Part shown: one piece after another, positions 24,792 through 56,080 of the stretch
Layout: each line of letters opens with the position of its first letter
How positions within the stretch are numbered: the first letter of the stretch is position 1
Assembly (NCBI GenBank): GCA_028709785.1
Contig: JAQUTK010000021.1
Coordinates: 610-64,609, forward strand
DNA length: 64,000 nt
Reading direction: 5' to 3'
DNA from: Bacteroidales bacterium
GTDB taxonomy: Bacteria; Bacteroidota; Bacteroidia; Bacteroidales; JAQUTK01
The notes under the pieces: generated by a model
What the model saw: the letters and a program-made list of their open reading frames with translations, nothing else
Databases searched by the model: none
What the model was told of the DNA's origin: nothing
Position numbers and translations under genes: made by a program

Positions 24792-26627
24792 TCAAAACGG
24801 CACCTCTCTTTCCTCGTCTTCCTCAAAGGCGATCGCCTGCACTTTGGCGGTGGCATCTATCATGCCCTCTTTCTTTTTAAACCAGTTGCTGTTGTCAAAG
24901 AGCGAGGAGCGGAACTTGCCCAGATGATCCATCGTCTCCGTTTCGTAGGGCGTGTAGCGACCGTTGACCGTGTTGAAGATGAACTGCACCTTGCCTTTTT
25001 TGCCGAGGTTTTTCGTCTTTACCTTCAGGATGTGAATCGTCGTGAGGTCGTTATTCTCGTCCCTTGACACCGCCAGACCAAAGTCCGCTTTGTTGTAAAA
25101 GTGCGACGAACCGTAGATGTCGTACATCTTGAGCTGTTTCGACTTGGACTTCGAATCATCGTCCTGTTTGGTAGGGTGGGCGACCAGTATGATCAGTATC
25201 CGATGCTTCTCGGCATACTTGGTGAGCTTGTCGAGAAACTGATTGATGTAGCTCGTCTCCCTTTCAAACTTGCCCAGACGATGTTCTACGCAGTTGTACG
25301 GGTCGATGACCAGTGCCTTGATACCGTTTCGGCGGATCAGATCGGTCGCTTTGTTCAGGATCGACTCGATGGTAAAATCCTCTTTGGGGATGATGGTAAA
25401 GATATTCTCGTCCAGAAACCGGACCGACTCCTCGTACTCCTCCTCCGTGGTAATACCCTGTTCGAGCTTCTTGCCGATCATCTTCTCCGAGATCTTGCAG
25501 TACGCCTCTTCGATCGGCATGTTTTCCGGACTGAAATAGGCCGTTCTCCAGTCGTGATTCATATACATGTTCGTCACCAGCATATCCACAAACTCCGACT
25601 TACCCGCTGTCGGTTCGCCGGTCACCACGCACAGTTTGCCCAACACGAAACGGAGGTAATTATCCAGGTTCGCAAACCCGGTGGAGAGTCCCGTCGTCAC
25701 CCCTTTTTCATAGATCAGGCGGTAGTTGTCGATGACATCACAGACCGAAAAGACCCCTTCGAGCGGGAGCATCTGCGGCAACTTGAGATAGATACGCAGA
25801 CTCTCCGCGCCATATTTTACCAGATGATCATTGGCATCTTTGCAGCCCTCGCCAAACTTCACGATACGGCAGACGCTCCGTCCAAAACGGCGAACCAGTT
25901 CGTCGCACAAAATCATCCCTTTCCGGTCGTTGTCCACGGCGATGTAGATAATCTCTTTGTTTTCAAAATGCGACTCGACAAACGGATCCAGCCAGCTAAG
26001 ATTCGTGTTTGCCCCGTTGGGCACGCTGATCACCGACGGGAAACCCGCCGCGATGACACTCATTGCATCCGGTTCACCCTCAACGACATAGACATAGTTT
26101 GGCTCTTTTGCACTGTCAATGTTGTAAGGCACCTGTTCGGCACCCGCCTCCATGGCAAAATGTTTTTCCAGGTCGCGATACTTCGTGTTGACCAGTTCGC
26201 CGTCCACAAAATAGTTGAACCCGATGCACTTCACTTTTTTCTTGACGTCGGGCAGGTACCGCTCCACTTCGGTCACTTTCAGATCGATCAGCACCTTTTG
26301 CGGGATGCACCGTTTCTCCACAAAATATTTCACCAGTTCGTCGCTCAGTTTCGTCTTGTTGGTGTCAAACACCGGACGCCTGAAGTGGGAGGCAACCCCT
26401 TTCGATTCCCTCTTTTCCGACTTCTCCAGCTCTTCGCCCGGCGTGGTCAGATGCCCCCCTTCCGTGCAGTGATAGCAATACGCATACTTGCTTTTCTTGT
26501 TGACTTTCAGGGTTTTCAGATGTTGATGATCCGGTCTGCGTTGCGGTCCGCAGAGCGGACAAGCCATCAGTTCGGTATCTCTGGTCGTCTTTGTTTCCAG
26601 TACATGCCCTTTAAAATAGTAAATCAT
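24792..26627 (-). CDS. Bifunctional primase-helicase (zinc finger, Toprim and DnaB/RecA-like ATPase; T7 gp4-like architecture)
   Basis: CPLCGP...CYHC zinc ribbon. Toprim VVEGEPDAMS ... IAVDNDRKG. Walker A TGEPTAGKSEF and Walker B-like ILIILVAHPTKQ. Confidence 0.8.
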   Translation of the reverse strand: MIYYFKGHVLETKTTRDTELMACPLCGPQRRPDHQHLKTLKVNKKSKYAYCYHCTEGGHLTTPGEELEKSEKRESKGVASHFRRPVFDTNKTKLSDELVKYFVEKRCIPQKVLIDLKVTEVERYLPDVKKKVKCIGFNYFVDGELVNTKYRDLEKHFAMEAGAEQVPYNIDSAKEPNYVYVVEGEPDAMSVIAAGFPSVISVPNGANTNLSWLDPFVESHFENKEIIYIAVDNDRKGMILCDELVRRFGRSVCRIVKFGEGCKDANDHLVKYGAESLRIYLKLPQMLPLEGVFSVCDVIDNYRLIYEKGVTTGLSTGFANLDNYLRFVLGKLCVVTGEPTAGKSEFVDMLVTNMYMNHDWRTAYFSPENMPIEEAYCKISEKMIGKKLEQGITTEEEYEESVRFLDENIFTIIPKEDFTIESILNKATDLIRRNGIKALVIDPYNCVEHRLGKFERETSYINQFLDKLTKYAEKHRILIILVAHPTKQDDDSKSKSKQLKMYDIYGSSHFYNKADFGLAVSRDENNDLTTIHILKVKTKNLGKKGKVQFIFNTVNGRYTPYETETMDHLGKFRSSLFDNSNWFKKKEGMIDATAKVQAIAFEEDEEREVPF

Positions 26628-26643
26628 TTGTTCCTTTTTTAGG

Positions 26644-27672
26644 TTAGTTTTTCCACTTTTTTTGTTTCACATTCCACACCGCATTCGCATTCGGTCGGGG
26701 TGGTGCTTCATCCGGAATCGGAAAGCCGAAATAACTTCGTTTTCCTGTCGCGCTATCTACCTCTTCAAAGGGATTTTTGATTTCCATTAGCACCAACTCA
26801 TGAAGCCTGGCAGCAAACAGTTGATGCGTTTTCATGCCCGGTTGCATCATGTTAGCGAAGTAATTCTTGGCTTGCCTTTCGCTCCGTATCGTTGATTCAT
26901 TTCCCTGTGTTATGACGTGTTCTTTGAATAAACGTTTTACTATGAAGGGATTATCTCTGAATTCTTCACCCAGATGCGATCGCATGCCCACCAATTCGAA
27001 CCATTCCTGACTTTTGAACGCCTGTTCCACACATTTCTCCCAGTCCATCACCGGTTGCAGCGGCTCATAGCCCCACGGATCATTGATTTTTGAAAAATCA
27101 ACTACTACTGCTTCTCCTGCGGAGCAATCTTTTTTTTCCAGTTCAGGAGAGGAAGAAGATTTAGAAGAAGAAGTAGAAATTTCTTTATTTTCGTTTTCTA
27201 AATTCTTCTCTTCTTTCCTCTCCTCTGGTATGGTTTGCTCTGGTATGGTCTCCTCTGGTATGGTGTGTTTTTCGAAAACAGTTATTTCGTTGTTATCATG
27301 AATGTTATCATTTTCTTTTAACGTATTTGAACACGTTTTTCGAGCCTGCTTCTTCATTCTTTGAGCTCTCTTCTCTTCAATTTCCTCCACTCTTTTATTC
27401 AATCCTTTCGAATAAAACGTGTCACCTTCAATCACAAAGAGGTCAAAATCGGTCACCATCTTTAGGAGAAATGATTCAGGAATCTTAAGAGAACGGGCAA
27501 GCATTCGAAGCTGATCGAAAGTTCCCAAGTTATTTTCCAGCTCAAAAAGAAACTCAACGAGCAGCCAATACAGTCCGTACAATGTAGCCCCGTTTTTGTG
27601 GAGAAGTAACTTACTCAGTTTAGAATCTCTCATTGCATCCCCGTCATGTTTAAAATACAAATCGCTTTTCAT
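26644..27672 (-). CDS. DUF4373 (Lin1244/Lin1753-like N-terminal domain) protein, replisome-organizer-like
   Basis: N-terminus YFKHDGDAMRDSKLSKLLLHKNGATLYGLYWLLVEFL matches my recollection of DUF4373. Acidic/Ser-rich linker contains a 15-bp x3 tandem repeat. Confidence 0.65.
   Translation of the reverse strand: MKSDLYFKHDGDAMRDSKLSKLLLHKNGATLYGLYWLLVEFLFELENNLGTFDQLRMLARSLKIPESFLLKMVTDFDLFVIEGDTFYSKGLNKRVEEIEEKRAQRMKKQARKTCSNTLKENDNIHDNNEITVFEKHTIPEETIPEQTIPEERKEEKNLENENKEISTSSSKSSSSPELEKKDCSAGEAVVVDFSKINDPWGYEPLQPVMDWEKCVEQAFKSQEWFELVGMRSHLGEEFRDNPFIVKRLFKEHVITQGNESTIRSERQAKNYFANMMQPGMKTHQLFAARLHELVLMEIKNPFEEVDSATGKRSYFGFPIPDEAPPRPNANAVWNVKQKKWKN
27223..27267 (-). repeat. In-frame 15-bp tandem repeat x3 inside the DUF4373 gene
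   Basis: CTCTGGTATGGTTTG / CTCTGGTATGGTCTC / CTCTGGTATGGTGTG on the + strand encodes (H/E/Q)TIPE x3 on the - strand. Confidence 0.85.
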
Positions 27673-27697
27673 GTTTCAGTCTTATCTTTATTAGTAA

Positions 27698-28288
27698 CTA
27701 CAAAAAATAGAACACATTATTTCCAAGTCCGTGGCGGAAGATTTTCCCCTCTGAAACCCAACGGTTGAGATCTTTGATGGCAGCAGACTTATGCAATCCG
27801 GTGATTCGCTGATAATCCATCCGCGTCATAAACGGTGTCTTGTTGAGAAACGTCAGAGCCACTTGCAACCGCTGCTCATCCGTGAGCGACGGAGCTGTAC
27901 ACTCCTTACTCTTCACCAGACGCATCGTCGAAAGTTTTCTCTTCATGGATCGGCTGGCTCTGAACTTTACGCGGCTGAATTGGGTCATTAGTCCCTTCTG
28001 ATCCTTTTCCGGCTCACCCTTCTTGCGCTCCAGTCCCACGGAAAAGATGCCGAGCCCTTCCAGTTCGACCGATTCACCCTGGCTCAGATGCCGTGCCAAA
28101 CCCTCCGCGATTGTCGTCAACATACCCATCACATCCCCTTTGGTAAAAGAAGAAGCATCCGCAATCTCCTCCGCCAGTTTGTCAATAGGAATCATCCCCC
28201 CATGGACGATTCGCGCATACTCTTTCGGTACCTCTCCATTCTCCCTGTTAGCAACAGGAGATTTAAACAACTCATATTTTACACTCAT
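27698..28288 (-). CDS. HU-like DNA-binding protein with a C-terminal extension
   Basis: IDKLAEEIADASSFTKGDVMGMLTTIAEGLARHLSQGESVELEGLGIFSV resembles the HU/IHF fold signature of Bacteroidales HU-like proteins. Confidence 0.7.
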   Translation of the reverse strand: MSVKYELFKSPVANRENGEVPKEYARIVHGGMIPIDKLAEEIADASSFTKGDVMGMLTTIAEGLARHLSQGESVELEGLGIFSVGLERKKGEPEKDQKGLMTQFSRVKFRASRSMKRKLSTMRLVKSKECTAPSLTDEQRLQVALTFLNKTPFMTRMDYQRITGLHKSAAIKDLNRWVSEGKIFRHGLGNNVFYFL

Positions 28289-28812: not shown

Positions 28813-29841
28813 ATGAAAGAAGAACAGAATCCTGTCGAAAGAGTCCAAACGACTAAAACAACACCAGAAAAAGAAAATGTAGCTCCACGCAAGAATACGA
28901 ACCCCGACACGAAAGCCAGTTTCAGTGAGCAATTTTGGGAAAATCATATTCACGTATTTATTTATCATTGGAATGAAATTGCCAAACTGACTGATCCGGA
29001 GTACAAAAAAAGTGAGATCAATTCGCTCTCCGGTTATTCACGGCTTGTCAATGGAAAGAATGTGACAACACAGGTCATAGTTGAAGGCATTCATGATCTG
29101 ATACTCCGTACTAATTGTTCCATGCATTTCGATGAATCCACACAGTTTGCCATGGATTGTATTGAAAATGGTCTGGAATTCGGACTTGTACAGATGAAAA
29201 ACGGAGCCGCAGTCGCGGGAGCAAAAATAATACCCTTTTTCACCCATAACAGGGGTTATAAAGCTCTCACTAGTTCAGAGAAAGAGAAGATAAAACGTTA
29301 CACTCCGCAGATAATATATAAGAAATGCCCGTTGGCGAACGAAGAAATTATTGTTGGAAAGTTTACATGTAATTGCAACCCCGGAGGTTTAACGCTTCAT
29401 CTGATCGGAACCACCCGCGAGATCAACGGTGAAATGATACTGCCTGACAGTTATCAATACGAGAATTGTCAATATCAGATTACTGCCATTGCAGGTCAAG
29501 CCTTTCAACAGACAAAGATAACCTCTGTCTTCCTATCCAAATATGTGGTTCATATCGGAACGAGGGCCTTTGCAAAATGCAGGAATCTTCAATCTGCAGT
29601 GATCACCAAGAAAGTATCGGAGATAGGGAAAGAAGCCTTTCTTCACTGCCCATTGAAGATGATTTACTCACTCAACCCAAAACCACCTAAGATGATTGGC
29701 AACACTTTTGGCAACCTGGATTATGACAATTGCATACTGGTCATACCCGAAAAATCCTTTGAAGCCTATGCAAGTGCAAAAGAGTGGGAGAAGTTTAAAA
29801 TAGTAAGGCCTCTCACAAAAAAGATCTCATTGAAGTTATGA
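28813..29841 (+). CDS. Protein with a C-terminal BspA-type LRR_5 module and no signal peptide
   Basis: C-terminal ...ITAIAGQAFQQTKITSVFLSKYVVHIGTRAFAKCRNLQSAVITKKVSEIGKEAFLHC... and tail FEAYASAKEWEKFKIV, like the other LRR genes. Confidence 0.6.
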   Translation: MKEEQNPVERVQTTKTTPEKENVAPRKNTNPDTKASFSEQFWENHIHVFIYHWNEIAKLTDPEYKKSEINSLSGYSRLVNGKNVTTQVIVEGIHDLILRTNCSMHFDESTQFAMDCIENGLEFGLVQMKNGAAVAGAKIIPFFTHNRGYKALTSSEKEKIKRYTPQIIYKKCPLANEEIIVGKFTCNCNPGGLTLHLIGTTREINGEMILPDSYQYENCQYQITAIAGQAFQQTKITSVFLSKYVVHIGTRAFAKCRNLQSAVITKKVSEIGKEAFLHCPLKMIYSLNPKPPKMIGNTFGNLDYDNCILVIPEKSFEAYASAKEWEKFKIVRPLTKKISLKL

Positions 29842-29947
29842 AATAGAAGTGTAGTTCGGCAATAAACCGGTAATTGATTCCGATACTCGGAAAAAAATAG
29901 TATCTTTGAAGAGTATAAAATTTGAAACTAGTTTTTCATGATTATGG

Positions 29948-29987
29948 AATGCGCCTGTCTGTGAGGATGGGCGCATTTTGCTTTTTT
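29948..29987 (+). terminator. Rho-independent terminator
   Basis: AATGCGCC / GGCGCATT stem, 13-nt loop, followed by TTGCTTTTTT. Confidence 0.7.
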
Positions 29988-30136
29988 ATGTGCCAATACC
30001 CATTGCTACTAAAGATTAAGAAAAAACATAGGCGTGGTTGAGAAATAAAACTAAAAAAAACAAATATCACAAATAAATAACTACTTTTACCTCGAGGAGA
30101 AGATCTGCTTTTCAATTAGAATTTACACAATAGATT

Positions 30137-32053
30137 ATGATTAAAAACGAAAAAGTAATACAAGGTTCACTTTTCGAAGAAGATTATCTTATTCGAACAT
30201 TAGGTAATATTGGAAGTTCACCAGAAACGGCCTTGACCGAAATTGTAGCAAATGCATGGGATGCAGGTGCTACCAATGTTGATATTTTTATTCCTGATGA
30301 AAAAGGGCAGAAACTAACAATCACCGATAATGGAATTGGCTTGACAAAAGAGGAGTTTTATTCAAGGTGGATGAAACTTGGATATAATAGATTAAAACAT
30401 CAAGGTAAAAAGGTTGAATTTCCCAAAGGGGTTGATTTACAAAGATTCGCATATGGTCGAAATGGGGTTGGGAGACATGGAATGCTTTGTTTTAATAATG
30501 AATATGAAGTTATTACAAATAAGGAAGGTGTGGAATCACGATTTACAATTTCAACAAAAAGTGAAAAAGAACCATTTCTAATAAAGAAGGAGACTTTTAT
30601 GAAATCTACGAAGTCTGGTACAAGATTAGAAGTAGTAGTAATAAAAAACTTACCAAGAGCAGATCTAATTCTTGAAATTATTTCCGCAAGGTTTTTACAT
30701 GACCCTAAATTTATTATTTCAATAAATAAGCGAACAATTCAATTAGAGCAACATAAAGGGCTTATCGATTCCTGCGAAATAAAAGAAGGGGATTTTATAT
30801 TGAATGTTCATCTTATTGATTCAAAAAAATCTCGGAAGTCGACCCTATATCAAGGAATTGCAATCTGGCAAGGTGGGAGATTAGTTGGTGAACCATCATG
30901 GATTATAGGTAAACATATGGTCTTAGATGGTCGCTCAAAACAAGCAAAAAGATATTCTGTCGTGGTTCAAACAGATGATTTTGCTGATTATATAACAGAA
31001 GACTGGACTGGTTTTAAAAAGAGAAGAGAACTTGATTCTGTTTTCGACAGAATCAATGAATGTGTTCAGGCAATGTTTTCAAAGGTAGCTCAAGATAATA
31101 TAGAAGAGACTACAGCTCAAATAAAAAAAGAATATAGTAAAGAATATGAGGAATTAAGTCCACTTGCAAAGTATGAGTTTAATGAAGCCATTCAAAAGAT
31201 CTCTATTTTTAATCCAACAGCTAGACAAGAATCAATATCATTAGCTATTGAAACAGTGATTCAACTCGAAAAAACACGAAGTGGAAGTCTATTACTACAA
31301 AAAATATCCGCGTTATCTCATGAAGATGTACAAGGATTAAACAAATTATTGGAGAATTGGACTGTAAAAGATGCATTGACCGTTCTTGATGAAATAGATA
31401 AACGAATTTCTGTAATTGAAGCAATTCGTAAATTATCAAATGATTCAAATGTTGATGAGTTGCATGTTTTACATCCTTTAGTTGCGAGCGCTCGTTGGAT
31501 TTTTGGACCTGAATTTGACTCACCCGAGTATTCTTCAAATAGTCAATTGCAGACAACTGTTGAAAAAGTATTTGGGAAAAAAATAATCAAAGGAGTCTTT
31601 AACAATAACAAAAAAAGACCTGATATTGTCGTAATGGGTAACTCTGTTTTTTCTGTTACTTCTACTATTGCATTTGATAGTGAGACAGGCTTATCTACGC
31701 TAAATAAGATTCTTATAATTGAATTGAAAAGAGGTGGTTTTAAACTTGGTCGTGAAGAGAGAAATCAAGCCGTTGGATATGTAGAGGATTTTATGAATTG
31801 TGGTACAATAATCGGCAATCCTTACATTAATGCTTTTATTGTTGGTGAGTCATTTAGTGAGAAAACTCAACCAATACAAATAATTGAAAATAAGAATAGA
31901 GTTGAAATGGGAAAAGTACAGATATGTTTGTTTTCACAACTAGTTGATTCTTCTGAGCGGCGATTATTTAATTTACGAAGTAGATTAAATGATCGATATG
32001 CAGATGTTCCTGGAATTGAATTATTCGAGAAAAACAGGAAATTAGCAATGTAA
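30137..32053 (+). CDS. GHKL (Bergerat-fold, MORC/HATPase_c_3-like) ATPase fused to a C-terminal PD-(D/E)xK nuclease-like domain
   Basis: N box EIVANAWDAGA, G1 box ITDNGIGL, G2 box GRNGVGRHG. C-terminus: RPDIVV ... ILIIELKRG ... NQAVGY (D, ExK and QxxxY motifs). Confidence 0.75.
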   Translation: MIKNEKVIQGSLFEEDYLIRTLGNIGSSPETALTEIVANAWDAGATNVDIFIPDEKGQKLTITDNGIGLTKEEFYSRWMKLGYNRLKHQGKKVEFPKGVDLQRFAYGRNGVGRHGMLCFNNEYEVITNKEGVESRFTISTKSEKEPFLIKKETFMKSTKSGTRLEVVVIKNLPRADLILEIISARFLHDPKFIISINKRTIQLEQHKGLIDSCEIKEGDFILNVHLIDSKKSRKSTLYQGIAIWQGGRLVGEPSWIIGKHMVLDGRSKQAKRYSVVVQTDDFADYITEDWTGFKKRRELDSVFDRINECVQAMFSKVAQDNIEETTAQIKKEYSKEYEELSPLAKYEFNEAIQKISIFNPTARQESISLAIETVIQLEKTRSGSLLLQKISALSHEDVQGLNKLLENWTVKDALTVLDEIDKRISVIEAIRKLSNDSNVDELHVLHPLVASARWIFGPEFDSPEYSSNSQLQTTVEKVFGKKIIKGVFNNNKKRPDIVVMGNSVFSVTSTIAFDSETGLSTLNKILIIELKRGGFKLGREERNQAVGYVEDFMNCGTIIGNPYINAFIVGESFSEKTQPIQIIENKNRVEMGKVQICLFSQLVDSSERRLFNLRSRLNDRYADVPGIELFEKNRKLAM

Positions 32054-32115
32054 AAGTACTAACGATTAACAATCGATATCGCAAATACAGGCTTCAGAGG
32101 TTTGCAAAGATTTTT

Positions 32116-32502
32116 ATGAGTTTCAGAATTTCTCTCAACTTGATAATGAATCACTCGCAATCCCTTTCAGACAAGACCTCCAAACTTATAAGAATTCCCT
32201 CAATAACCGAGAACTTGAACATGATGAGCATTATTAAAAAACTTTTTGGCTGTTCGGAGAAAGCAGACAATGACTCAGGAAAGAAAAGGACTGAAATTGA
32301 TCAGCTGATTAACTCTGAGAATCTAAATAACAGCATAATCGAATTAGACAACTATATCTCTGCACTTTGTGAATATGGTCATTCCATTGAACGATTAAGT
32401 GTGCCACAAAAGAATTTCTATTTCAATCAGAATTAAGAAAAAGAGTTTAAGAATGGTGGTTATATTCAGTTCTATTATAAACAAAATATTTTAAAGCTAT
32501 GA
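32116..32502 (+). pseudogene. DUF4375 (DMP19 C-terminal)-like ORF interrupted by an in-frame TAA and truncated at its 3-prime end
   Basis: ...SVPQKNFYFNQN-TAA-EKEFKNGGYIQFYYKQN resembles the DUF4375 core ...FYxxxxLExEVNNGGFxQFFxNS as I recall it. Reading through the TAA at 32434-32436, the frame ends in an ATGA overlap with the next gene (32499-32502). Confidence 0.4.
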
Positions 32503-34379
32503 TTAATCTTCCTCTTCAGATTTCAGTGCCTCAAATCTGGCAAGGTACTTTTGATAAGAACCAATGGAATTCAATAAATTTTATTGTTGGAGCCAACGGT
32601 ACTGGAAAGTCATTATTCTCGAATAGTCTTAAAGATCAATTGCAAAACAAAGGACTAACTGTTCGACTACTTACTGCTGAAAGGCTAGCTGGTTTTGAAA
32701 AATCGAGTTATAGCTCTTTTTCATCTAGCTATTTTGATAGAGGGTTAGATATTTCAAATTTTAAATCATGCAAACAACTTGGTGAGCAATTTGGTTTGTC
32801 AACTTCTGCATTTATAATTTTGCAAGAAAGATTAGATTTAAGGATAAAAATAGAATCCTTGCTCTCCGATTTATTTAAAAAAACAATCAGATTAGTTGAA
32901 GAAGGTGGATATTTGAAACCCAAAATGCAAAGCCTTACAGGAGGAGACGAATATGGGCTAAAAGAACAGGAATGTCATGGCTTGAAAGAGATTATTTCTC
33001 TACTTACCTTTTTGTATGACGAAAAAAACAACTGTATTATCTTCGATGAACCGGAATTACATTTACACCCTCAGTTTCAATCATTTTTTCTGGATGAGAT
33101 AAGAAAATTAGCTGGTAATCCATTTGATGATCCGTCGAAGAAAATGTTCTTTATAATAACTCACTCACCATATTTCTTGGATTTCAGGAGTATTGATGAT
33201 TTGAAAAATGTGATTGTTTGTCATAATAACGAAAAACCGACTTTTATTGAAGAGGGAAGTATAGATGCTCAGGATGAGTATATATTAAGAAAGTTTTTGC
33301 CAAGATTCAACACTCACCATAAGCAATTCTTTTTTTCTCCAAACCCTGTGTTTGTTGAAGGTTATACAGACCAACAAATCATTACTTTATTATTTGAAAA
33401 ATATGAAATGAAGATTTCCGCTTCCGGATCTTCTGTCATTGATGTTGGTGGAAAAGACGAACTTGCCGTATTTTATAGATTGTGCAAAAAACTAAAAATT
33501 GAAGCCCGGTTAGTAGCAGATTACGATGCTCTGTTTAGAGGGAAGTTGCGAGAGGTTTTTACTTCAGAAGAGAAAGTAGCCGATTATTTTACAACAAATG
33601 GTTATGGAGCTAATATTTCGAATACAATTGGCGAAATTGAAAGAAAACTTCTAAGTATCGCTGATAATCTGAATACTAAGAAATCTTCCGACTCAAATGT
33701 TCAGAAATTGATAGATTATTTAAAACCTTTGTATGTAAATAAACAGGACAACCTCGATAAAATTAGGGATGCTGTTTATTTAGCAGTTTATAGATTTAAG
33801 GTACAGATAAAAGATTGTGTTGATGGATGTTTGAATTCAGATGTTGAATATATTGTTAGCGGGTCTTTTGCATTAACAGAGGCTATAAAGCGAGCAAATA
33901 TCTTTATTATTCCTCAAGGCGAATTAGAACATTTTTTCATTAAGAGCACTATTGATTATCTCAATATAACTAACAAGGACAAATTGTTTCATGATGAGAA
34001 AGATTTTATATTATCGCTAGACAATAAGCAAGAAATTGAAAATAATTATTCGGACTTAATAAGGATTCTTAAAGAATCAGTTCCTCATATTGTCGTTAAT
34101 ACAAAAAAACATTTAAAGTATACACTTGTTGAGTGGATACAAAAGGTTCAAAATGCGATTTCAAGAAAAGAAGTAAAGACGTTGGATCAACTTAAAACGA
34201 ATGCAAGAATACAATACTCTATTTATAGCCAGATTCTTGAATGCGCTGATGATGGTCTTGTTGTCAATGAGAATGATACTTTTAGTTGCACAGTGAAAAT
34301 TAAATTAACACTAATCGGAGAAGAAAAGATTGTACATTTTGATCATACAACTACTCCACAGAACTTTATATTTGAATAA
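32499..34379 (+). CDS. OLD-family-like protein: ABC/AAA_21-type ATPase fused to a Toprim nuclease domain
   Basis: Walker A GANGTGKS, Walker B IIFDEPELHLHP, H-loop ITHSPYF. Toprim Glu in VFVEGYTDQ, GGKDE, and DxD in VADYDALF. Confidence 0.8.
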   Translation: MINLPLQISVPQIWQGTFDKNQWNSINFIVGANGTGKSLFSNSLKDQLQNKGLTVRLLTAERLAGFEKSSYSSFSSSYFDRGLDISNFKSCKQLGEQFGLSTSAFIILQERLDLRIKIESLLSDLFKKTIRLVEEGGYLKPKMQSLTGGDEYGLKEQECHGLKEIISLLTFLYDEKNNCIIFDEPELHLHPQFQSFFLDEIRKLAGNPFDDPSKKMFFIITHSPYFLDFRSIDDLKNVIVCHNNEKPTFIEEGSIDAQDEYILRKFLPRFNTHHKQFFFSPNPVFVEGYTDQQIITLLFEKYEMKISASGSSVIDVGGKDELAVFYRLCKKLKIEARLVADYDALFRGKLREVFTSEEKVADYFTTNGYGANISNTIGEIERKLLSIADNLNTKKSSDSNVQKLIDYLKPLYVNKQDNLDKIRDAVYLAVYRFKVQIKDCVDGCLNSDVEYIVSGSFALTEAIKRANIFIIPQGELEHFFIKSTIDYLNITNKDKLFHDEKDFILSLDNKQEIENNYSDLIRILKESVPHIVVNTKKHLKYTLVEWIQKVQNAISRKEVKTLDQLKTNARIQYSIYSQILECADDGLVVNENDTFSCTVKIKLTLIGEEKIVHFDHTTTPQNFIFE

Positions 34380-34714
34380 TGTCATTTAGCGAACTCAATT
34401 CCGTCGAATATTATATGTTTCATGGGTATGATTATTCGTTGTTCCTGACCGGTACGGATCTTCAAAGAGCGAAAGCTATCACCGGTGCCACGAACTTTAT
34501 TTCTGCGGTGAACAAAGAGGAGCAGAAGCAGAGTTTTATCAAAGAGGCATACTTGTTGCACCAGTCGCTGACGCTTTGCAGTAGTTTGCTGGACACCAAT
34601 CAGCGGTACGAAGCGGCTTTCTTTGAGGCTGTTCGCACGCTTGTGGTTCGCGTGACGGGTACCGGTGCTTTTGATAGAAATGTAAAGGTTCAATCTAAGC
34701 ATGCATCGGAGTAA
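34379..34714 (+). pseudogene. hsdR: Relic of a type I restriction enzyme R subunit C-terminus (DUF3387-like)
   Basis: ...KEAYLLHQSLTLCSSLL...RYEAAFFEAVRTLVVRV resembles the HsdR C-terminal domain. Only 111 codons remain. GC rises abruptly at its 5-prime edge. Confidence 0.5.
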
Positions 34715-34740: not shown

Positions 34741-34776
34741 TTTGACCATTTTCGTGACTTCACGAAAATGGTCAAA
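34741..34776. repeat. Perfect 17-bp-arm inverted repeat
   Basis: TTTGACCATTTTCGTGA ct TCACGAAAATGGTCAAA. Confidence 0.9.
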
Positions 34777-35157: not shown

Positions 35158-35184
35158 CAGTTGTTCGGAAATTCCGAACAACTG
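35158..35184. repeat. Perfect 12-bp-arm inverted repeat
   Basis: CAGTTGTTCGGA aat TCCGAACAACTG. Confidence 0.9.
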
Positions 35185-37235: not shown

Positions 37236-37305
37236 GAAGGGTATCAAACATAATAAATACAAATAAATTGCGTTATTTCTTTATAAACTAACATGATTGA
37301 GCTCC

Positions 37306-38457
37306 ATGAAGAAGCACGCACTCCTTTTCCTTGGTTTACTACTTGCTTTCGCTGTTCAGGCGATCGACTTTAAGGTGGATCAGTTGAAGTACACCACGAA
37401 TGCCGACGGACTTACGGCATCTGTTGACAGTCAGGAATGTAATCTTTCCGGAGCGATCGTCATTCCGGCAAAAGTGATGTATAACGGCCAAAGCTATGCT
37501 GTTACATCGATTGGCGACGGTGCTTTTCGGGGATGTAACGAAATGACTTCCATAGAGATCTCTGAAGGGGTGCGATATGTTGGTATGGGGGCTTTTATTC
37601 ATTGTGCTTCGCTTGCTTCGGTGAAGATTCCGATGAGTGTGGATTCGATAGGAGCGGGGGCGTTCTGTTTCTGCTCGTCACTGGCTCATTTTGATGTGGA
37701 TAAGGATCATCCGTTCTTTACTGTGTCTGATGGTATCTTACTTTCCAAAAACAAAAGGACTATCATCGCCTATCCGGCGGCACAAGCAAAGAACCACTAC
37801 CTGATTCCTGTAGGGATTGCTACGATCGAAGAGAACGCTTTTGCGGGTTGTTCGACGCTTCACTATCTGACTATTCCACCGGGTGTCATAGCGATCAATA
37901 AGTGTGCTTTCCTGGGTTGCAGCGGTTTGGATTCCATTTCCATCTCTGCCAGTGTGGATTCGATTGGTGAGAGGGCTTTCTGGGGTTGCAAAAATCTGAC
38001 TTCACTCCTCATTCCGGAAGGTGTGCATACCATTGGACGATCTGCTTTTGAAGGGTGTGAGAATCTGGTTTCTGTTTTCATTCCGGGAAGTGTGATTTCT
38101 ATTGGAGGGAAGGCTTTTGGACGCTGTCAAAAGCTGAAGGAGATACATATCGATGCTTCGACACCGCCTGCCGGCGACGGCGATCCGTTTGATTCAATCA
38201 ACAAAACAACTTGCACCCTCTATGTGCCTGCTTTCTCAAAGGGTGACTATGCTGCGTCTGAATACTGGAAAGAGTTTCTGATTGTGGAGGAAGAGGTGCC
38301 GTTTATGACTGTGGTATGGGTGCTGGGTGTGATCGCCTTGCTCCTGGGAATGATCTTTGTGCTTTCGCGCCGGTTTAAGATCGGTGTGTTGCGCAGCAGT
38401 CCGTGCAAGTGCGGTAAGATGAAGGATGAAGAGAGTACGAATTGCATAAACCATTAA
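37306..38457 (+). CDS. BspA-type LRR_5 protein with a signal peptide and a C-terminal transmembrane anchor
   Basis: MKKHALLFLGLLLAFAVQA. Repeated IPxxVxSIGxxAFxxCxxL units. C-terminal TM VVWVLGVIALLLGMIFVL. Confidence 0.85.
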   Translation: MKKHALLFLGLLLAFAVQAIDFKVDQLKYTTNADGLTASVDSQECNLSGAIVIPAKVMYNGQSYAVTSIGDGAFRGCNEMTSIEISEGVRYVGMGAFIHCASLASVKIPMSVDSIGAGAFCFCSSLAHFDVDKDHPFFTVSDGILLSKNKRTIIAYPAAQAKNHYLIPVGIATIEENAFAGCSTLHYLTIPPGVIAINKCAFLGCSGLDSISISASVDSIGERAFWGCKNLTSLLIPEGVHTIGRSAFEGCENLVSVFIPGSVISIGGKAFGRCQKLKEIHIDASTPPAGDGDPFDSINKTTCTLYVPAFSKGDYAASEYWKEFLIVEEEVPFMTVVWVLGVIALLLGMIFVLSRRFKIGVLRSSPCKCGKMKDEESTNCINH

Positions 38458-55899: not shown

Positions 55900-56001
55900 G
55901 TTATTTCAAACAAATTTCTTTGTCTGCTTTTTTTATTAAATATCTCAATGGCTTCAAATGAATAAAATCACATTATTTCTTTGTAGAATAATATGGTTTA
56001 C

Positions 56002-56080
56002 CTCCATGATGAAGCACGCACTCTTTTTTTCTGATGTTGAAAGTCAGGAATGCACTCTTTCCGGGGCGATCGTCATTCTG
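56002..56080 (+). pseudogene. Relic of the 5-prime end of a BspA-type LRR gene
   Basis: CTCCATGATGAAGCACGCACTC... and ...AGTCAGGAATGCACTCTTTCCGGGGCGATCGTCATTC match 37302-37323 and about 37428-37466 of the intact LRR gene, with an internal deletion of about 100 nt and no downstream ORF. Confidence 0.65.

What the first reader, a model, noticed from the sequence alone, without database searches (positions are those of the whole stretch)
29988..34714. Sharply AT-rich island with two large ATPase-nuclease genes next to an hsdR relic: a candidate (possibly unnamed) defence locus
Seen: between the terminator at 29948-29987 and position 34379 the DNA is visibly AT-rich. Hand counts on single 60-nt lines give 32-38 percent GC, versus about 50 percent at 25.2 kb and 55 percent at 34.56 kb. 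The island encodes only three same-strand ORFs. These are a GHKL ATPase with a C-terminal PD-(D/E)xK-like domain (30137-32053), a decayed DUF4375-like ORF (32116-32502) and an ABC-ATPase/Toprim OLD-like protein (32499-34379). The island ends exactly where a GC-rich fragment resembling the HsdR C-terminus begins. Established knowledge: GHKL/MORC-like ATPases, OLD-family nucleases (Gabija GajA, the PARIS AriA/AriB logic, P2 Old) and type I R-M genes cluster in defence islands. Inference: this is a defence hotspot in which a low-GC cassette replaced most of a type I R-M system. The pairing of a GHKL-nuclease fusion with a stand-alone OLD-like protein does not match any named two-gene system that I can recall. 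I cannot run the profile search that would decide whether it is already catalogued.
Basis: partly seen in the sequence, partly recalled or inferred. Interest (0 to 1): 0.8.

Follow-up and report, generated by a model that had tools for sequence, protein, structure and literature searches.

The report
Two unrelated defence nucleases, side by side
The AT-rich stretch is real, but it is not a new two-gene immune system: it holds two separate, already described single-gene defence nucleases, and the second is the intact survivor of a decayed type I restriction operon.

Summary
Window 29988-34378 is 32.2% GC against 41.2% for the window, the lowest 4.4-kb stretch present.

The interpretation does not hold. 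The GHKL-nuclease gene (30137-32053) belongs to a large family: GHKL ATPase, middle domain, then a PD-(D/E)xK nuclease with an E-D-ExK motif. None of 79 genome loci carrying this family has an OLD gene within 10 kb, and none shares any conserved neighbour. This matches the stand-alone paraMORC3 nucleases of Iyer et al. 2008. It is also the architecture of type I-D Shedu, validated as VcSduA in 2025.

The OLD gene (32499-34379) is stand-alone in its more distant relatives. Its two closest informative relatives (76-80% identity) sit inside type I R-M operons, in the order hsdM-hsdS-OLD-hsdR. The window keeps the last ~22 nt of hsdS, an intact OLD gene and the first ~38 nt of hsdR, then a piece of the HsdR C-terminal domain. 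This fragment is joined at 32476/32477 to a truncated DMP19 gene.

So OLD is a passenger of the dead R-M operon, not part of a cassette that replaced it. The GC step at 34379 is the native OLD/hsdR boundary. Both nucleases look intact.

Verdict: new members of known kinds; modest interest.

The parts
29945..29990 (+). Intrinsic-terminator-like hairpin and T-run upstream of the GHKL gene. The DNA block shared with sister locus L003 starts at 29856.
   Evidence: Terminator scan: 16-pair stem. blastn block 29856-32476 matches L003 9713-12339.
30137..32053 (+). Stand-alone GHKL ATPase, middle domain, helical linker and PD-(D/E)xK nuclease, 638 aa (paraMORC3-type; same architecture as type I-D Shedu). 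GHKL motifs: E35, N39, D42; D64-x-G66-x-G68; G107/G110/G112; G161-T162. Nuclease residues: E441, D496, E529-x-K531, Q544.
   Evidence: PF13589 E=7e-19. Invariant residues in 122 diverse homologs. AF2 model pLDDT 86 with an alpha-beta-beta-beta-alpha-beta C-terminal core. Foldseek hits to TRAP1/Hsp90/MORC2 over the N-terminal and middle domains. No conserved neighbour in 80 loci.
32116..32476 (+). Relic of a DMP19 (PF14300/DUF4375) gene. Only the N-terminal half is kept. It has a premature TAA at 32434-32436, and its homology ends at 32476.
   Evidence: 85% amino-acid identity to the N-terminal 106 aa of L003's intact 200-aa DMP19 gene. L003 has CTA where the window has TAA; homology ends near 32476.
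32477..32498 (+). Last ~22 nt of a type I R-M hsdS gene, including its stop codon. This is the left edge of the R-M-derived fragment.
   Evidence: blastn homology to the hsdS-OLD junction of L091 and L092 starts at 32477/32478. Alignment.
32499..34379 (+). Intact OLD-family nuclease, 626 aa. ABC ATPase: Walker A G31-ANGTGK37-S, Walker B/D-loop D183-E184, H222. Toprim: E287, D315, D341-x-D343. It resembles Class 1 OLD (no helicase, reverse transcriptase or split partner) and was a passenger gene of a type I R-M operon.
   Evidence: PF13175 and PF20469. The only PDB sequence hit is Class 1 Ts OLD 6P74, E=1.8e-14. Invariant residues. Context hsdM-hsdS-OLD-hsdR in L091 and L092.
34379..34714 (+). 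hsdR relic, a 111-aa ORF. The first ~12-16 codons are the hsdR start, with the ATG overlapping the OLD stop as in L092. They are fused in frame to a piece of the HsdR C-terminal domain. The helicase-nuclease body is deleted and the 3' end is truncated.
   Evidence: MSFSELNSVEYYMFH versus L092 HsdR MPFTELNTVEHYIIH. DNA homology to L091/L092 ends at 34414-34416. PF11867 positions 24-111 of 329, E=9e-13.

Best explanation
The AT-rich stretch is a composite of two independent, horizontally mobile single-gene defence nucleases. A deletion or recombination event brought them together. They are not partners.

(1) Gene 30137-32053 encodes a stand-alone paraMORC3-type enzyme. By analogy with MutL, Hsp90 and MORC proteins and with the validated VcSduA, an N-terminal GHKL ATPase dimerises on ATP. 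Together with the middle domain it forms a clamp that gates a C-terminal PD-(D/E)xK nuclease, which then cuts invading DNA. This mechanism is inferred.

(2) Gene 32499-34379 encodes an OLD-family ABC-ATPase/Toprim nuclease of the Class 1 (single-gene) type. It probably nicks or degrades replicating phage DNA, as shown for Vc OLD, P2 Old and Ts OLD. This too is inferred. In this protein's closest clade the gene sits between hsdS and hsdR of a type I R-M operon.

In the window's lineage that operon has decayed. hsdM is gone and hsdS is reduced to 22 nt. hsdR is reduced to its start codons plus a fragment of the C-terminal domain. The breakpoint at 32476/32477 fuses the remnant to a truncated DMP19 gene that originally followed the GHKL gene.

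Shown here: domain content, conserved catalytic residues, lack of co-occurrence, the R-M origin of the OLD fragment and the breakpoints. Inferred: anti-phage function and the molecular mechanism of each enzyme.
For: No co-occurrence.
- None of 79 GHKL loci has an OLD gene within 10 kb.
- No neighbour family occurs in more than 5 of 80 loci.
- None of 80 metagenome OLD loci, nor of the 7 other OLD loci compared alongside them (L004, L005, L007, L008, L011, L091, L092), has a GHKL gene, except L004. L004 is 99.97% identical to the window.

Sister locus L003.
- It has the same left flank and a 98%-identical GHKL gene.
- It carries an intact DMP19 gene and no OLD gene.

R-M origin of OLD.
- L091 and L092 (80% and 76% identical OLD) show the order hsdM-hsdM-(AAA_14)-hsdS-OLD-hsdR.
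- Window homology to them spans exactly 32477-34416, covering the hsdS 3' end and the hsdR 5' end.
- L003 homology ends at 32476.
- OLD is low-GC inside those operons too: 0.30-0.32 against 0.41-0.46 for hsdM and hsdR.

GHKL family.
- Motifs I-III and residues D496 and K531 are invariant in 122 homologs of 26-82% identity; E441, E529 and Q544 are at least 90% conserved.
- The AF2 model has pLDDT 86.
- Iyer et al. describe paraMORC3 proteins with an E-D-ExK nuclease as stand-alone genes in Bacteroidetes and Proteobacteria.
- VcSduA, a GHKL-plus-nuclease single gene, defends against T1-like phages. Its E27A and K557A mutants are dead.

OLD family.
- Pfam and PADLOC hits to GajA and Old models.
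- Ts OLD 6P74 is the only PDB sequence hit.
- No large same-strand gene lies downstream in 9 relatives of at least 50% identity, apart from HsdR in L092.
- Class 1 OLD defence is documented in PMC12392090.
Against: - No functional data exist for these two proteins.
- Placement of the GHKL protein's nuclease domain in the Shedu DUF4263 clade is weak. Pfam SduA_C matched 1 of 26 C-terminal domains (E=0.029). PADLOC SduA matched 18 of 26 at E<=1, best 2e-4. A profile search found no solved Shedu structure.
- VcSduA has a different spacing between its ATPase Glu and nuclease Lys: 530 residues, against 491-505 in this family. Direct homology to the validated protein is therefore untested.
- Only two informative close OLD relatives show the R-M embedding. 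More distant relatives are stand-alone.
- At 626 aa, the OLD protein is slightly longer than the 500-600 aa range used for Class 1 in PMC12392090.
- Juxtaposition in this one organism could still allow incidental cooperation between the two enzymes.
Confidence: 0.8

Rival explanations
1. The GHKL-nuclease and the OLD nuclease form a new two-gene defence system.
For: The two genes are adjacent, on the same strand and of similar low GC in the window and in L004. No terminator-like site was found on the + strand between them.
Against: - The two families are never adjacent in 79 GHKL loci or in the OLD loci examined (80 metagenome loci plus L005-L011, L091 and L092), apart from the window's own organism.
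- A pseudogene (the DMP19 relic) and a recombination breakpoint lie between them.
- The sister locus L003 has the GHKL gene without OLD.
- L004 is the same organism, not an independent case.
Confidence: 0.03
2. The OLD gene of this clade is a functional accessory of the type I R-M enzyme. It would be a second-line guard, like PrrC in the prr locus or like PARIS, triggered when a phage anti-restriction protein disables the R-M complex. In the window it would be an orphan, either inactive or deregulated.
For: - In L091 and L092 OLD occupies the hsdS-hsdR interval. This is the position of prrC in the prr locus (my own knowledge).
- Intergenic gaps there are tight, 1-4 nt, which implies co-transcription.
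- PARIS is a Class 4 OLD system and is triggered by the anti-restriction protein Ocr (my own knowledge).
- Systems embedded in type I operons are documented, for example TgvAB.
Against: - Relatives of 65% identity or less are stand-alone, with no hsd genes nearby.
- Only two embedded cases were seen.
- The OLD gene remains intact after loss of the R-M genes, which suggests it works alone.
- Embedding may simply reflect a hotspot for insertion.
Confidence: 0.2
3. The GHKL-nuclease is a restriction endonuclease, either BbrUII/HgiDII-like type II or a modification-dependent type IV enzyme, rather than a Shedu-like infection-gated nuclease.
For: - NCBIfam BbrUII/HgiDII family restriction enzyme, E=1e-31.
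- PADLOC REase_II models, E=3e-15, matched by 63 of 65 family members.
- Iyer et al. place paraMORCs mainly in R-M contexts.
Against: - The NCBIfam score is 110 bits against a cut-off of 550. The best-scoring match covers only the GHKL region, residues 27-206.
- No methyltransferase or any other conserved neighbour occurs in 80 loci.
- Iyer et al. single out the nuclease-bearing paraMORC3 subset as stand-alone and possibly independent of R-M.
- A type IV, modification-dependent activity cannot be excluded.
Confidence: 0.15

Closest known systems
paraMORC3 family with a C-terminal restriction-endonuclease-fold domain (Iyer, Abhiman & Aravind 2008, PMC2292703)
   Same: - GHKL ATPase, then an S5-like middle domain, then a C-terminal nuclease with an E-D-ExK motif.
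- Found mainly in Bacteroidetes and Proteobacteria.
- Occurs as a stand-alone gene with no conserved neighbourhood. This was reproduced here.
   Different: No difference was found at the level of the published description. That paper gives no accession that I could match to this protein, so identity with their family rests on shared features.
Shedu type I-D / VcSduA of Vibrio cholerae (10.1101/2023.08.10.552793; PMC12137116)
   Same: Single-gene system. An N-terminal GHKL ATPase (HATPase_c_3 in the survey of Gu et al.), a middle domain and a C-terminal PD-(D/E)xK nuclease. The ATPase Glu and the nuclease Lys that VcSduA needs for defence are both conserved here (E35, K531).
   Different: - The nuclease domain here barely matches DUF4263/SduA models.
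- The Glu-to-Lys spacing is about 496 residues, against 530 in VcSduA.
- This is probably a different subfamily. No phenotype is known for it.
Class 1 OLD family nucleases (P2 Old, Ts OLD PDB 6P74, Vc OLD; PMC7049728, PMC12392090)
   Same: [quoted passage not shown] There is no GajB helicase, no retron and no split AriA/AriB. Ts OLD is the only solved structure found by sequence.
   Different: - 626 aa, against 500-600 aa.
- The closest clade is embedded in type I R-M operons between hsdS and hsdR.
- The papers I read do not describe that context for the characterised Class 1 enzymes.
Defence genes embedded in type I R-M operons (PrrC in the prr locus; TgvAB in V. cholerae VPI-2, PMC12409362)
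   Same: An unrelated defence nuclease sits inside an hsd operon. Here it lies between hsdS and hsdR, with tight gene spacing.
   Different: The passenger is an OLD-family nuclease rather than an anticodon nuclease or a GmrSD-like enzyme. In the window the host operon has decayed and only the passenger is intact.

Membership tests
paraMORC3 (GHKL plus RE-fold nuclease) | N-terminal GHKL ATPase with intact ATP-binding motifs | tested here: met
   PF13589 E=7e-19. E35, N39, D42, D64, G66, G68, G110 and G112 are invariant in 122 homologs.
paraMORC3 (GHKL plus RE-fold nuclease) | S5-like or transducer middle domain after the GHKL domain | tested here: met
   The AF2 model (pLDDT 86) aligns over about 400 columns to the N-terminal and middle domains of TRAP1, Hsp90 and MORC2, E about 1e-15. 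This rests on a predicted structure.
paraMORC3 (GHKL plus RE-fold nuclease) | Conserved C-terminal globular domain with an E-D-ExK nuclease motif | tested here: met
   E441, D496, E529-x-K531 and Q544 are conserved. Predicted alpha-beta-beta-beta-alpha-beta core. Weak hits to the PD-(D/E)xK families HSDR_N_2, PDDEXK_3, VRR_NUC and Cas4.
paraMORC3 (GHKL plus RE-fold nuclease) | Nuclease-bearing members occur stand-alone in Bacteroidetes and Proteobacteria | tested here: met
   79 loci from those phyla and others. No neighbour family occurs in more than 5 of 80 loci.
Shedu (SduA), type I-D | Nuclease domain recognised as DUF4263 / SduA_C | tested here: inconclusive
   PF14082 matched 1 of 26 C-terminal domains (E=0.029). 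PADLOC SduA PDLC00401 matched 18 of 26 at E<=1, best 2e-4, covering only the helix before the catalytic core. No Shedu chain was found by profile search of PDB sequences.
Shedu (SduA), type I-D | Anti-phage protection that needs the ATPase and nuclease catalytic residues (as for VcSduA E27A and K557A) | not testable with these tools
   This needs plaque assays. The equivalent residues E35 and K531 are present.
Shedu (SduA), type I-D | Direct sequence homology to VcSduA | not tested
   The VcSduA sequence could not be obtained; Supplementary Table 7 was truncated. Glu-to-Lys spacing differs: 530 against 491-505.
BbrUII/HgiDII type II restriction enzymes (NF050001) | Score above the curated cut-off, and a cognate methyltransferase next door | tested here: not met
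   110 bits against a cut-off of 550, with the best-scoring match confined to the GHKL region. No methyltransferase and no conserved neighbour.
Class 1 OLD nucleases | [quoted passage not shown] | tested here: met
   PF13175/PF13304 plus PF20469. Walker A, D183-E184, H222, E287 and D341/D343 are invariant. Aligns to Ts OLD 6P74.
Class 1 OLD nucleases | Single-gene: no downstream UvrD-like GajB, no retron reverse transcriptase, not split into AriA/AriB | tested here: met
   No same-strand ORF of at least 150 aa lies directly downstream in 9 relatives of at least 50% identity, apart from HsdR in L092. Gene contexts show none of these partners.
Class 1 OLD nucleases | Length 500-600 aa (cut-off used in PMC12392090) | tested here: not met
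   626 aa here. Homologs are 620-650 aa. This is a marginal departure.
Gabija (GajA/GajB) | GajB helicase gene immediately downstream of the OLD gene | tested here: not met
   Downstream lies the 111-aa hsdR relic. PADLOC GajA hits cover only the shared ATPase/Toprim core, residues 179-386.
Type I R-M system (functional) | Intact hsdM, hsdS and hsdR genes | tested here: not met
   There is no hsdM. hsdS is reduced to 22 nt. hsdR is reduced to its start codons plus 88 of the 329 positions of the C-terminal domain.

The most novel reading that the evidence does not exclude
A clade of OLD-family nucleases is built into type I R-M operons between hsdS and hsdR. It would act as a PrrC-like or PARIS-like guard that fires when phage anti-restriction proteins disable the R-M enzyme. 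The window would then show this guard outliving its R-M host. I did not find an OLD guard of type I R-M described in the papers I searched.
Probability: 0.15. Interest if true: 0.55.

Novelty: new member of a known kind. Interest (0 to 1): 0.25.

Why it matters
As a candidate new two-gene defence system, this does not stand. It should not be pursued as one.

What remains useful:
- It is a clean, nucleotide-resolved example of how defence loci are remodelled. An R-M operon decays while its embedded OLD passenger survives, and the remnant is fused next to an unrelated solo nuclease.
- It gives a well-supported Bacteroidota branch of the GHKL-nuclease (paraMORC3 / Shedu I-D-like) family that is large, very conserved and untested.
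- It provides a lead that some OLD nucleases are operon-embedded in type I R-M systems. That makes a guard hypothesis testable.

Tried and rejected
- The first AF2 run used a shallow alignment of 19 sequences at 73-87% identity. It gave pLDDT 50 and was unusable. A 122-sequence alignment from the representative search fixed this.
- Foldseek with the full-length model returned only GHKL and middle-domain matches: Hsp90, TRAP1 and MORC2 in the PDB, RIIA and Hsp90 in BFVD. The nuclease domain therefore could not be placed structurally.
- A profile of the C-terminal domain found nothing meaningful among PDB sequences.
- Pfam on the C-terminal half alone gave no significant family.
- I tried to link the family to VcSduA through the paper's Supplementary Table 7, but the held copy is truncated. 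The Shedu papers have no held supplements.
- The DMP19 gene was considered as a conserved partner or antitoxin of the GHKL nuclease. It was rejected because it is present only in L003 and the window, not in the other 79 loci.
- The sigma-70 promoter scan was uninformative: 22 sites found against 22.7 expected, and Bacteroidota use other promoter types.
- No tRNA or integrase was found in the window to delimit a mobile element.

Full report
**Observation**

The composition claim is correct. Window 29988-34378 has 32.2% GC, against 41.2% for the whole 64-kb window. It is the lowest-GC stretch of that size in the window; 0.17% of sliding windows reach this value.
- GHKL gene: 32.7% GC.
- OLD gene: 31.9%.
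- The 336-nt hsdR-like ORF that follows: 45.8%.
- The terminator-like hairpin at 29945-29980 is real.
- ORFs and domains are as described. The 638-aa protein has HATPase_c_3, E=7e-19. The 626-aa protein has AAA_15 plus OLD-like TOPRIM. The 111-aa ORF matches positions 24-111 of the 329-position HsdR C-terminal domain model, E=9e-13.
- The middle ORF stops at 32436, not 32502, and has no Pfam hit of its own.

**Do the two big genes belong together? No.**

I collected 79 loci from different species that encode a relative of the GHKL protein (39-82% identity). They come from Bacteroidota, Proteobacteria, Planctomycetota, Verrucomicrobiota and Lentisphaerota, each with up to 10 kb of flank on each side.
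- A tblastn search with the OLD protein finds no OLD gene in any of them.
- All-against-all clustering of neighbouring ORFs finds no family present in more than 5 of 80 loci. The GHKL gene is a solo gene.

The reverse test gives the same answer.
- I examined 80 metagenome loci with OLD relatives, plus loci from exact-protein look-ups.
- None contains a GHKL relative except L004.
- L004 is 99.97% identical to the window over 11.7 kb, so it is the same organism.

**The sister locus**

L003 comes from a related Bacteroidales organism. It shares the window's left flank: housekeeping genes, then a primase-helicase, DUF7833 and HU-HIG module, at 71-91% nucleotide identity. It has a 98%-identical GHKL gene.
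- There the GHKL gene is followed by an intact 200-aa DMP19 (PF14300, formerly DUF4375) gene and then toxin-antitoxin-like genes. There is no OLD gene.
- The window's small ORF is the N-terminal half of that DMP19 gene, at 85% amino-acid identity.
- It carries a nonsense change (TAA where L003 has CTA), and its homology ends at 32476.

**Where the OLD gene came from**

More distant OLD relatives (65% identity or less) are stand-alone. They often lie next to an integrase or other defence-type genes, and no large gene follows them.

The two closest relatives on informative contigs are different. P0123 (80% identical) and P0124 (76%) lie inside type I R-M operons in the order hsdM-hsdM-(AAA_14)-hsdS-OLD-hsdR, with 1-4 nt between hsdS, OLD and hsdR.
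- DNA homology between the window and both operons runs from 32477/32478 to 34414/34416.
- That span is the last ~22 nt of hsdS with its stop codon, the whole OLD gene and the first ~38 nt of hsdR.
- The 111-aa ORF starts MSFSELNSVEYYMFH. HsdR of L092 starts MPFTELNTVEHYIIH.
- After that the ORF continues in frame into a fragment of the HsdR C-terminal domain.

The window therefore holds the remnant of an hsdS-OLD-hsdR operon:
- hsdM is lost.
- hsdS is reduced to 22 nt.
- hsdR is gutted by an internal deletion and truncated.
- OLD is intact.

The left breakpoint lies exactly where L003 homology ends (32476) and R-M homology begins (32477). In L091 and L092 the OLD gene is likewise much lower in GC than the hsd genes around it: 0.30-0.32 against 0.41-0.46. 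The sharp GC step at 34379 is thus the native OLD/hsdR boundary, not the end of an inserted island.

**What the GHKL protein is**

The family is large. A search of 1.84 billion cluster representatives gave 2992 with E<=1e-3 and 351 with E<=1e-30.

Conservation in 122 homologs of 26-82% identity:
- Invariant or nearly so in the ATPase: E35, N39, D42, D64, G66, G68, G110, G112 (GHKL motifs I-III).
- Invariant or nearly so in the nuclease: E441, D496, E529, K531, Q544, Y548 (an E-D-ExK-Q nuclease signature).

An AlphaFold2 model built on that alignment has pLDDT 86. It shows four parts:
- a GHKL domain;
- a middle domain;
- a long helical region;
- a C-terminal alpha-beta-beta-beta-alpha-beta core.

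The N-terminal two-thirds aligns to TRAP1, Hsp90 and MORC2.

This matches the published description of the nuclease-bearing subset of paraMORC3: a GHKL-S5 module plus an E-D-ExK restriction-fold domain, prevalent in Proteobacteria and Bacteroidetes, occurring as stand-alone genes without conserved neighbourhoods (PMC2292703).

The same architecture was later classed as type I-D Shedu (10.1101/2023.08.10.552793). It was validated experimentally as VcSduA, a single gene that protects against T1-like phages and needs both its ATPase Glu and its nuclease Lys (PMC12137116).

My tests of Shedu membership proper are weak:
- Pfam SduA_C matches 1 of 26 C-terminal domains.
- PADLOC SduA matches 18 of 26 at E<=1 (best 2e-4), and only over the helix before the catalytic core.
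- The Glu-to-Lys spacing differs from VcSduA.

I therefore file the protein as paraMORC3-type with Shedu I-D-like architecture, not as a proven Shedu.

The NCBIfam hit to BbrUII/HgiDII restriction enzymes scores 110 bits against a cut-off of 550, with its best-scoring match on the GHKL region only. No methyltransferase accompanies the family.

**What the OLD protein is**

It has:
- Walker A (GANGTGKS);
- Walker B/D-loop (DEPELHLH);
- the H-loop;
- the Toprim Glu (VEGYTD);
- DxD.

All are conserved across the family. Its only sequence match among solved structures is the Class 1 enzyme Ts OLD (6P74, E=1.8e-14). There is no GajB, reverse transcriptase or split AriA/AriB partner. Class 1 OLD enzymes are single-gene defence systems. 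Vc OLD nicks DNA and blocks phage replication (PMC12392090). At 626 aa this protein is slightly above the usual Class 1 length range.

**Mechanism (inferred)**

The two enzymes would act independently. The GHKL enzyme would use ATP-driven dimerisation and clamping to license its PD-(D/E)xK nuclease on foreign DNA. The OLD enzyme would use its ABC ATPase to control Toprim-mediated nicking or degradation of replicating phage DNA. Nothing in the sequence suggests coupling: a pseudogene and a recombination scar separate the two genes.

**What stays open**

The hsdS-OLD-hsdR arrangement resembles the position of prrC in the prr locus. It also recalls that PARIS, a Class 4 OLD system, is triggered by an anti-restriction protein; this point rests on my own knowledge. 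Defence genes embedded in type I operons are documented (TgvAB).

This OLD clade may therefore guard the R-M enzyme. I rate that at about 0.15-0.2. Only two embedded cases were seen, and more distant relatives are solo.

**Verdict**

The locus is a juxtaposition of two known kinds of single-gene defence nuclease plus two gene relics, DMP19 and hsdS/hsdR. Novelty: new members of known kinds. Interest: 0.25.

Noticed in passing
window 30137-32053 vs L003 10001-11917: The GHKL gene is 98.6% identical in DNA between the two lineages, with 15 synonymous and 12 nonsynonymous codon differences in 638 codons. Its own upstream spacer is 85.5% identical, the DMP19 relic 88.1%, and flanking genes 71-91%. 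The NMO gene has 57 synonymous differences in 316 codons. This points to a recent gene-sized transfer or conversion of this gene alone.
   Followed up: partly
GHKL family (P0001-P0120; L012-L090): The family is unusually conserved for a defence-type gene: 73-82% amino-acid identity across several Bacteroidota classes and a Janthinobacterium MAG. In 46 of 54 loci the gene has lower GC than its flanks (median -4 points), which is consistent with wide recent horizontal spread.
   Followed up: partly
L003 12009-12611; window 32116-32476: A DMP19-family gene sits directly after the GHKL nuclease gene in L003 and is a relic in the window. DMP19 is known as a DNA-mimic protein (my own knowledge). It is not a conserved partner in the other 79 loci, so the adjacency is probably incidental.
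   Followed up: partly
L091 2954-9907; L092 1163-11977: The type I R-M operons that host the closest OLD relatives have two tandem hsdM genes. L092 also has an AAA_14/DUF4143 gene between hsdM and hsdS. L091 keeps the hsdR start codons after OLD, but the next called gene is a deaminase-like ORF. This may be a second, independent hsdR decay next to this OLD clade.
   Followed up: no
L005 8001-16549 (also L006): A 65%-identical OLD homolog lies next to an AAA_14/DUF4143 gene and a 1305-aa SEC-C/Upx-like protein. This looks like a defence-island context.
   Followed up: no
window 24792-28288: A minus-strand module of primase-helicase (Toprim_2 plus DnaB_C), DUF7833 and HU-HIG, with GC 0.41-0.51, is syntenic with L003. 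It lies just left of the variable cargo region. The 64 kb contains no integrase and no tRNA, so the element's nature and limits are unresolved.
   Followed up: partly
window 34741-34776 and 35158-35184: Two strong hairpins lie in the 33%-GC non-coding spacer between the hsdR relic and the next gene (35279). One is ccattttcgtgacttcacgaaaatgg; the other is a 12-pair stem. Their function is unknown.
   Followed up: no
window 28813-29841 and 37297-38457: Two BspA-type LRR_5 genes flank the region. The first is absent from the sister locus L003, so it is also variable cargo. A short similarity to 55965-56078 suggests further paralogous sequence.
   Followed up: no
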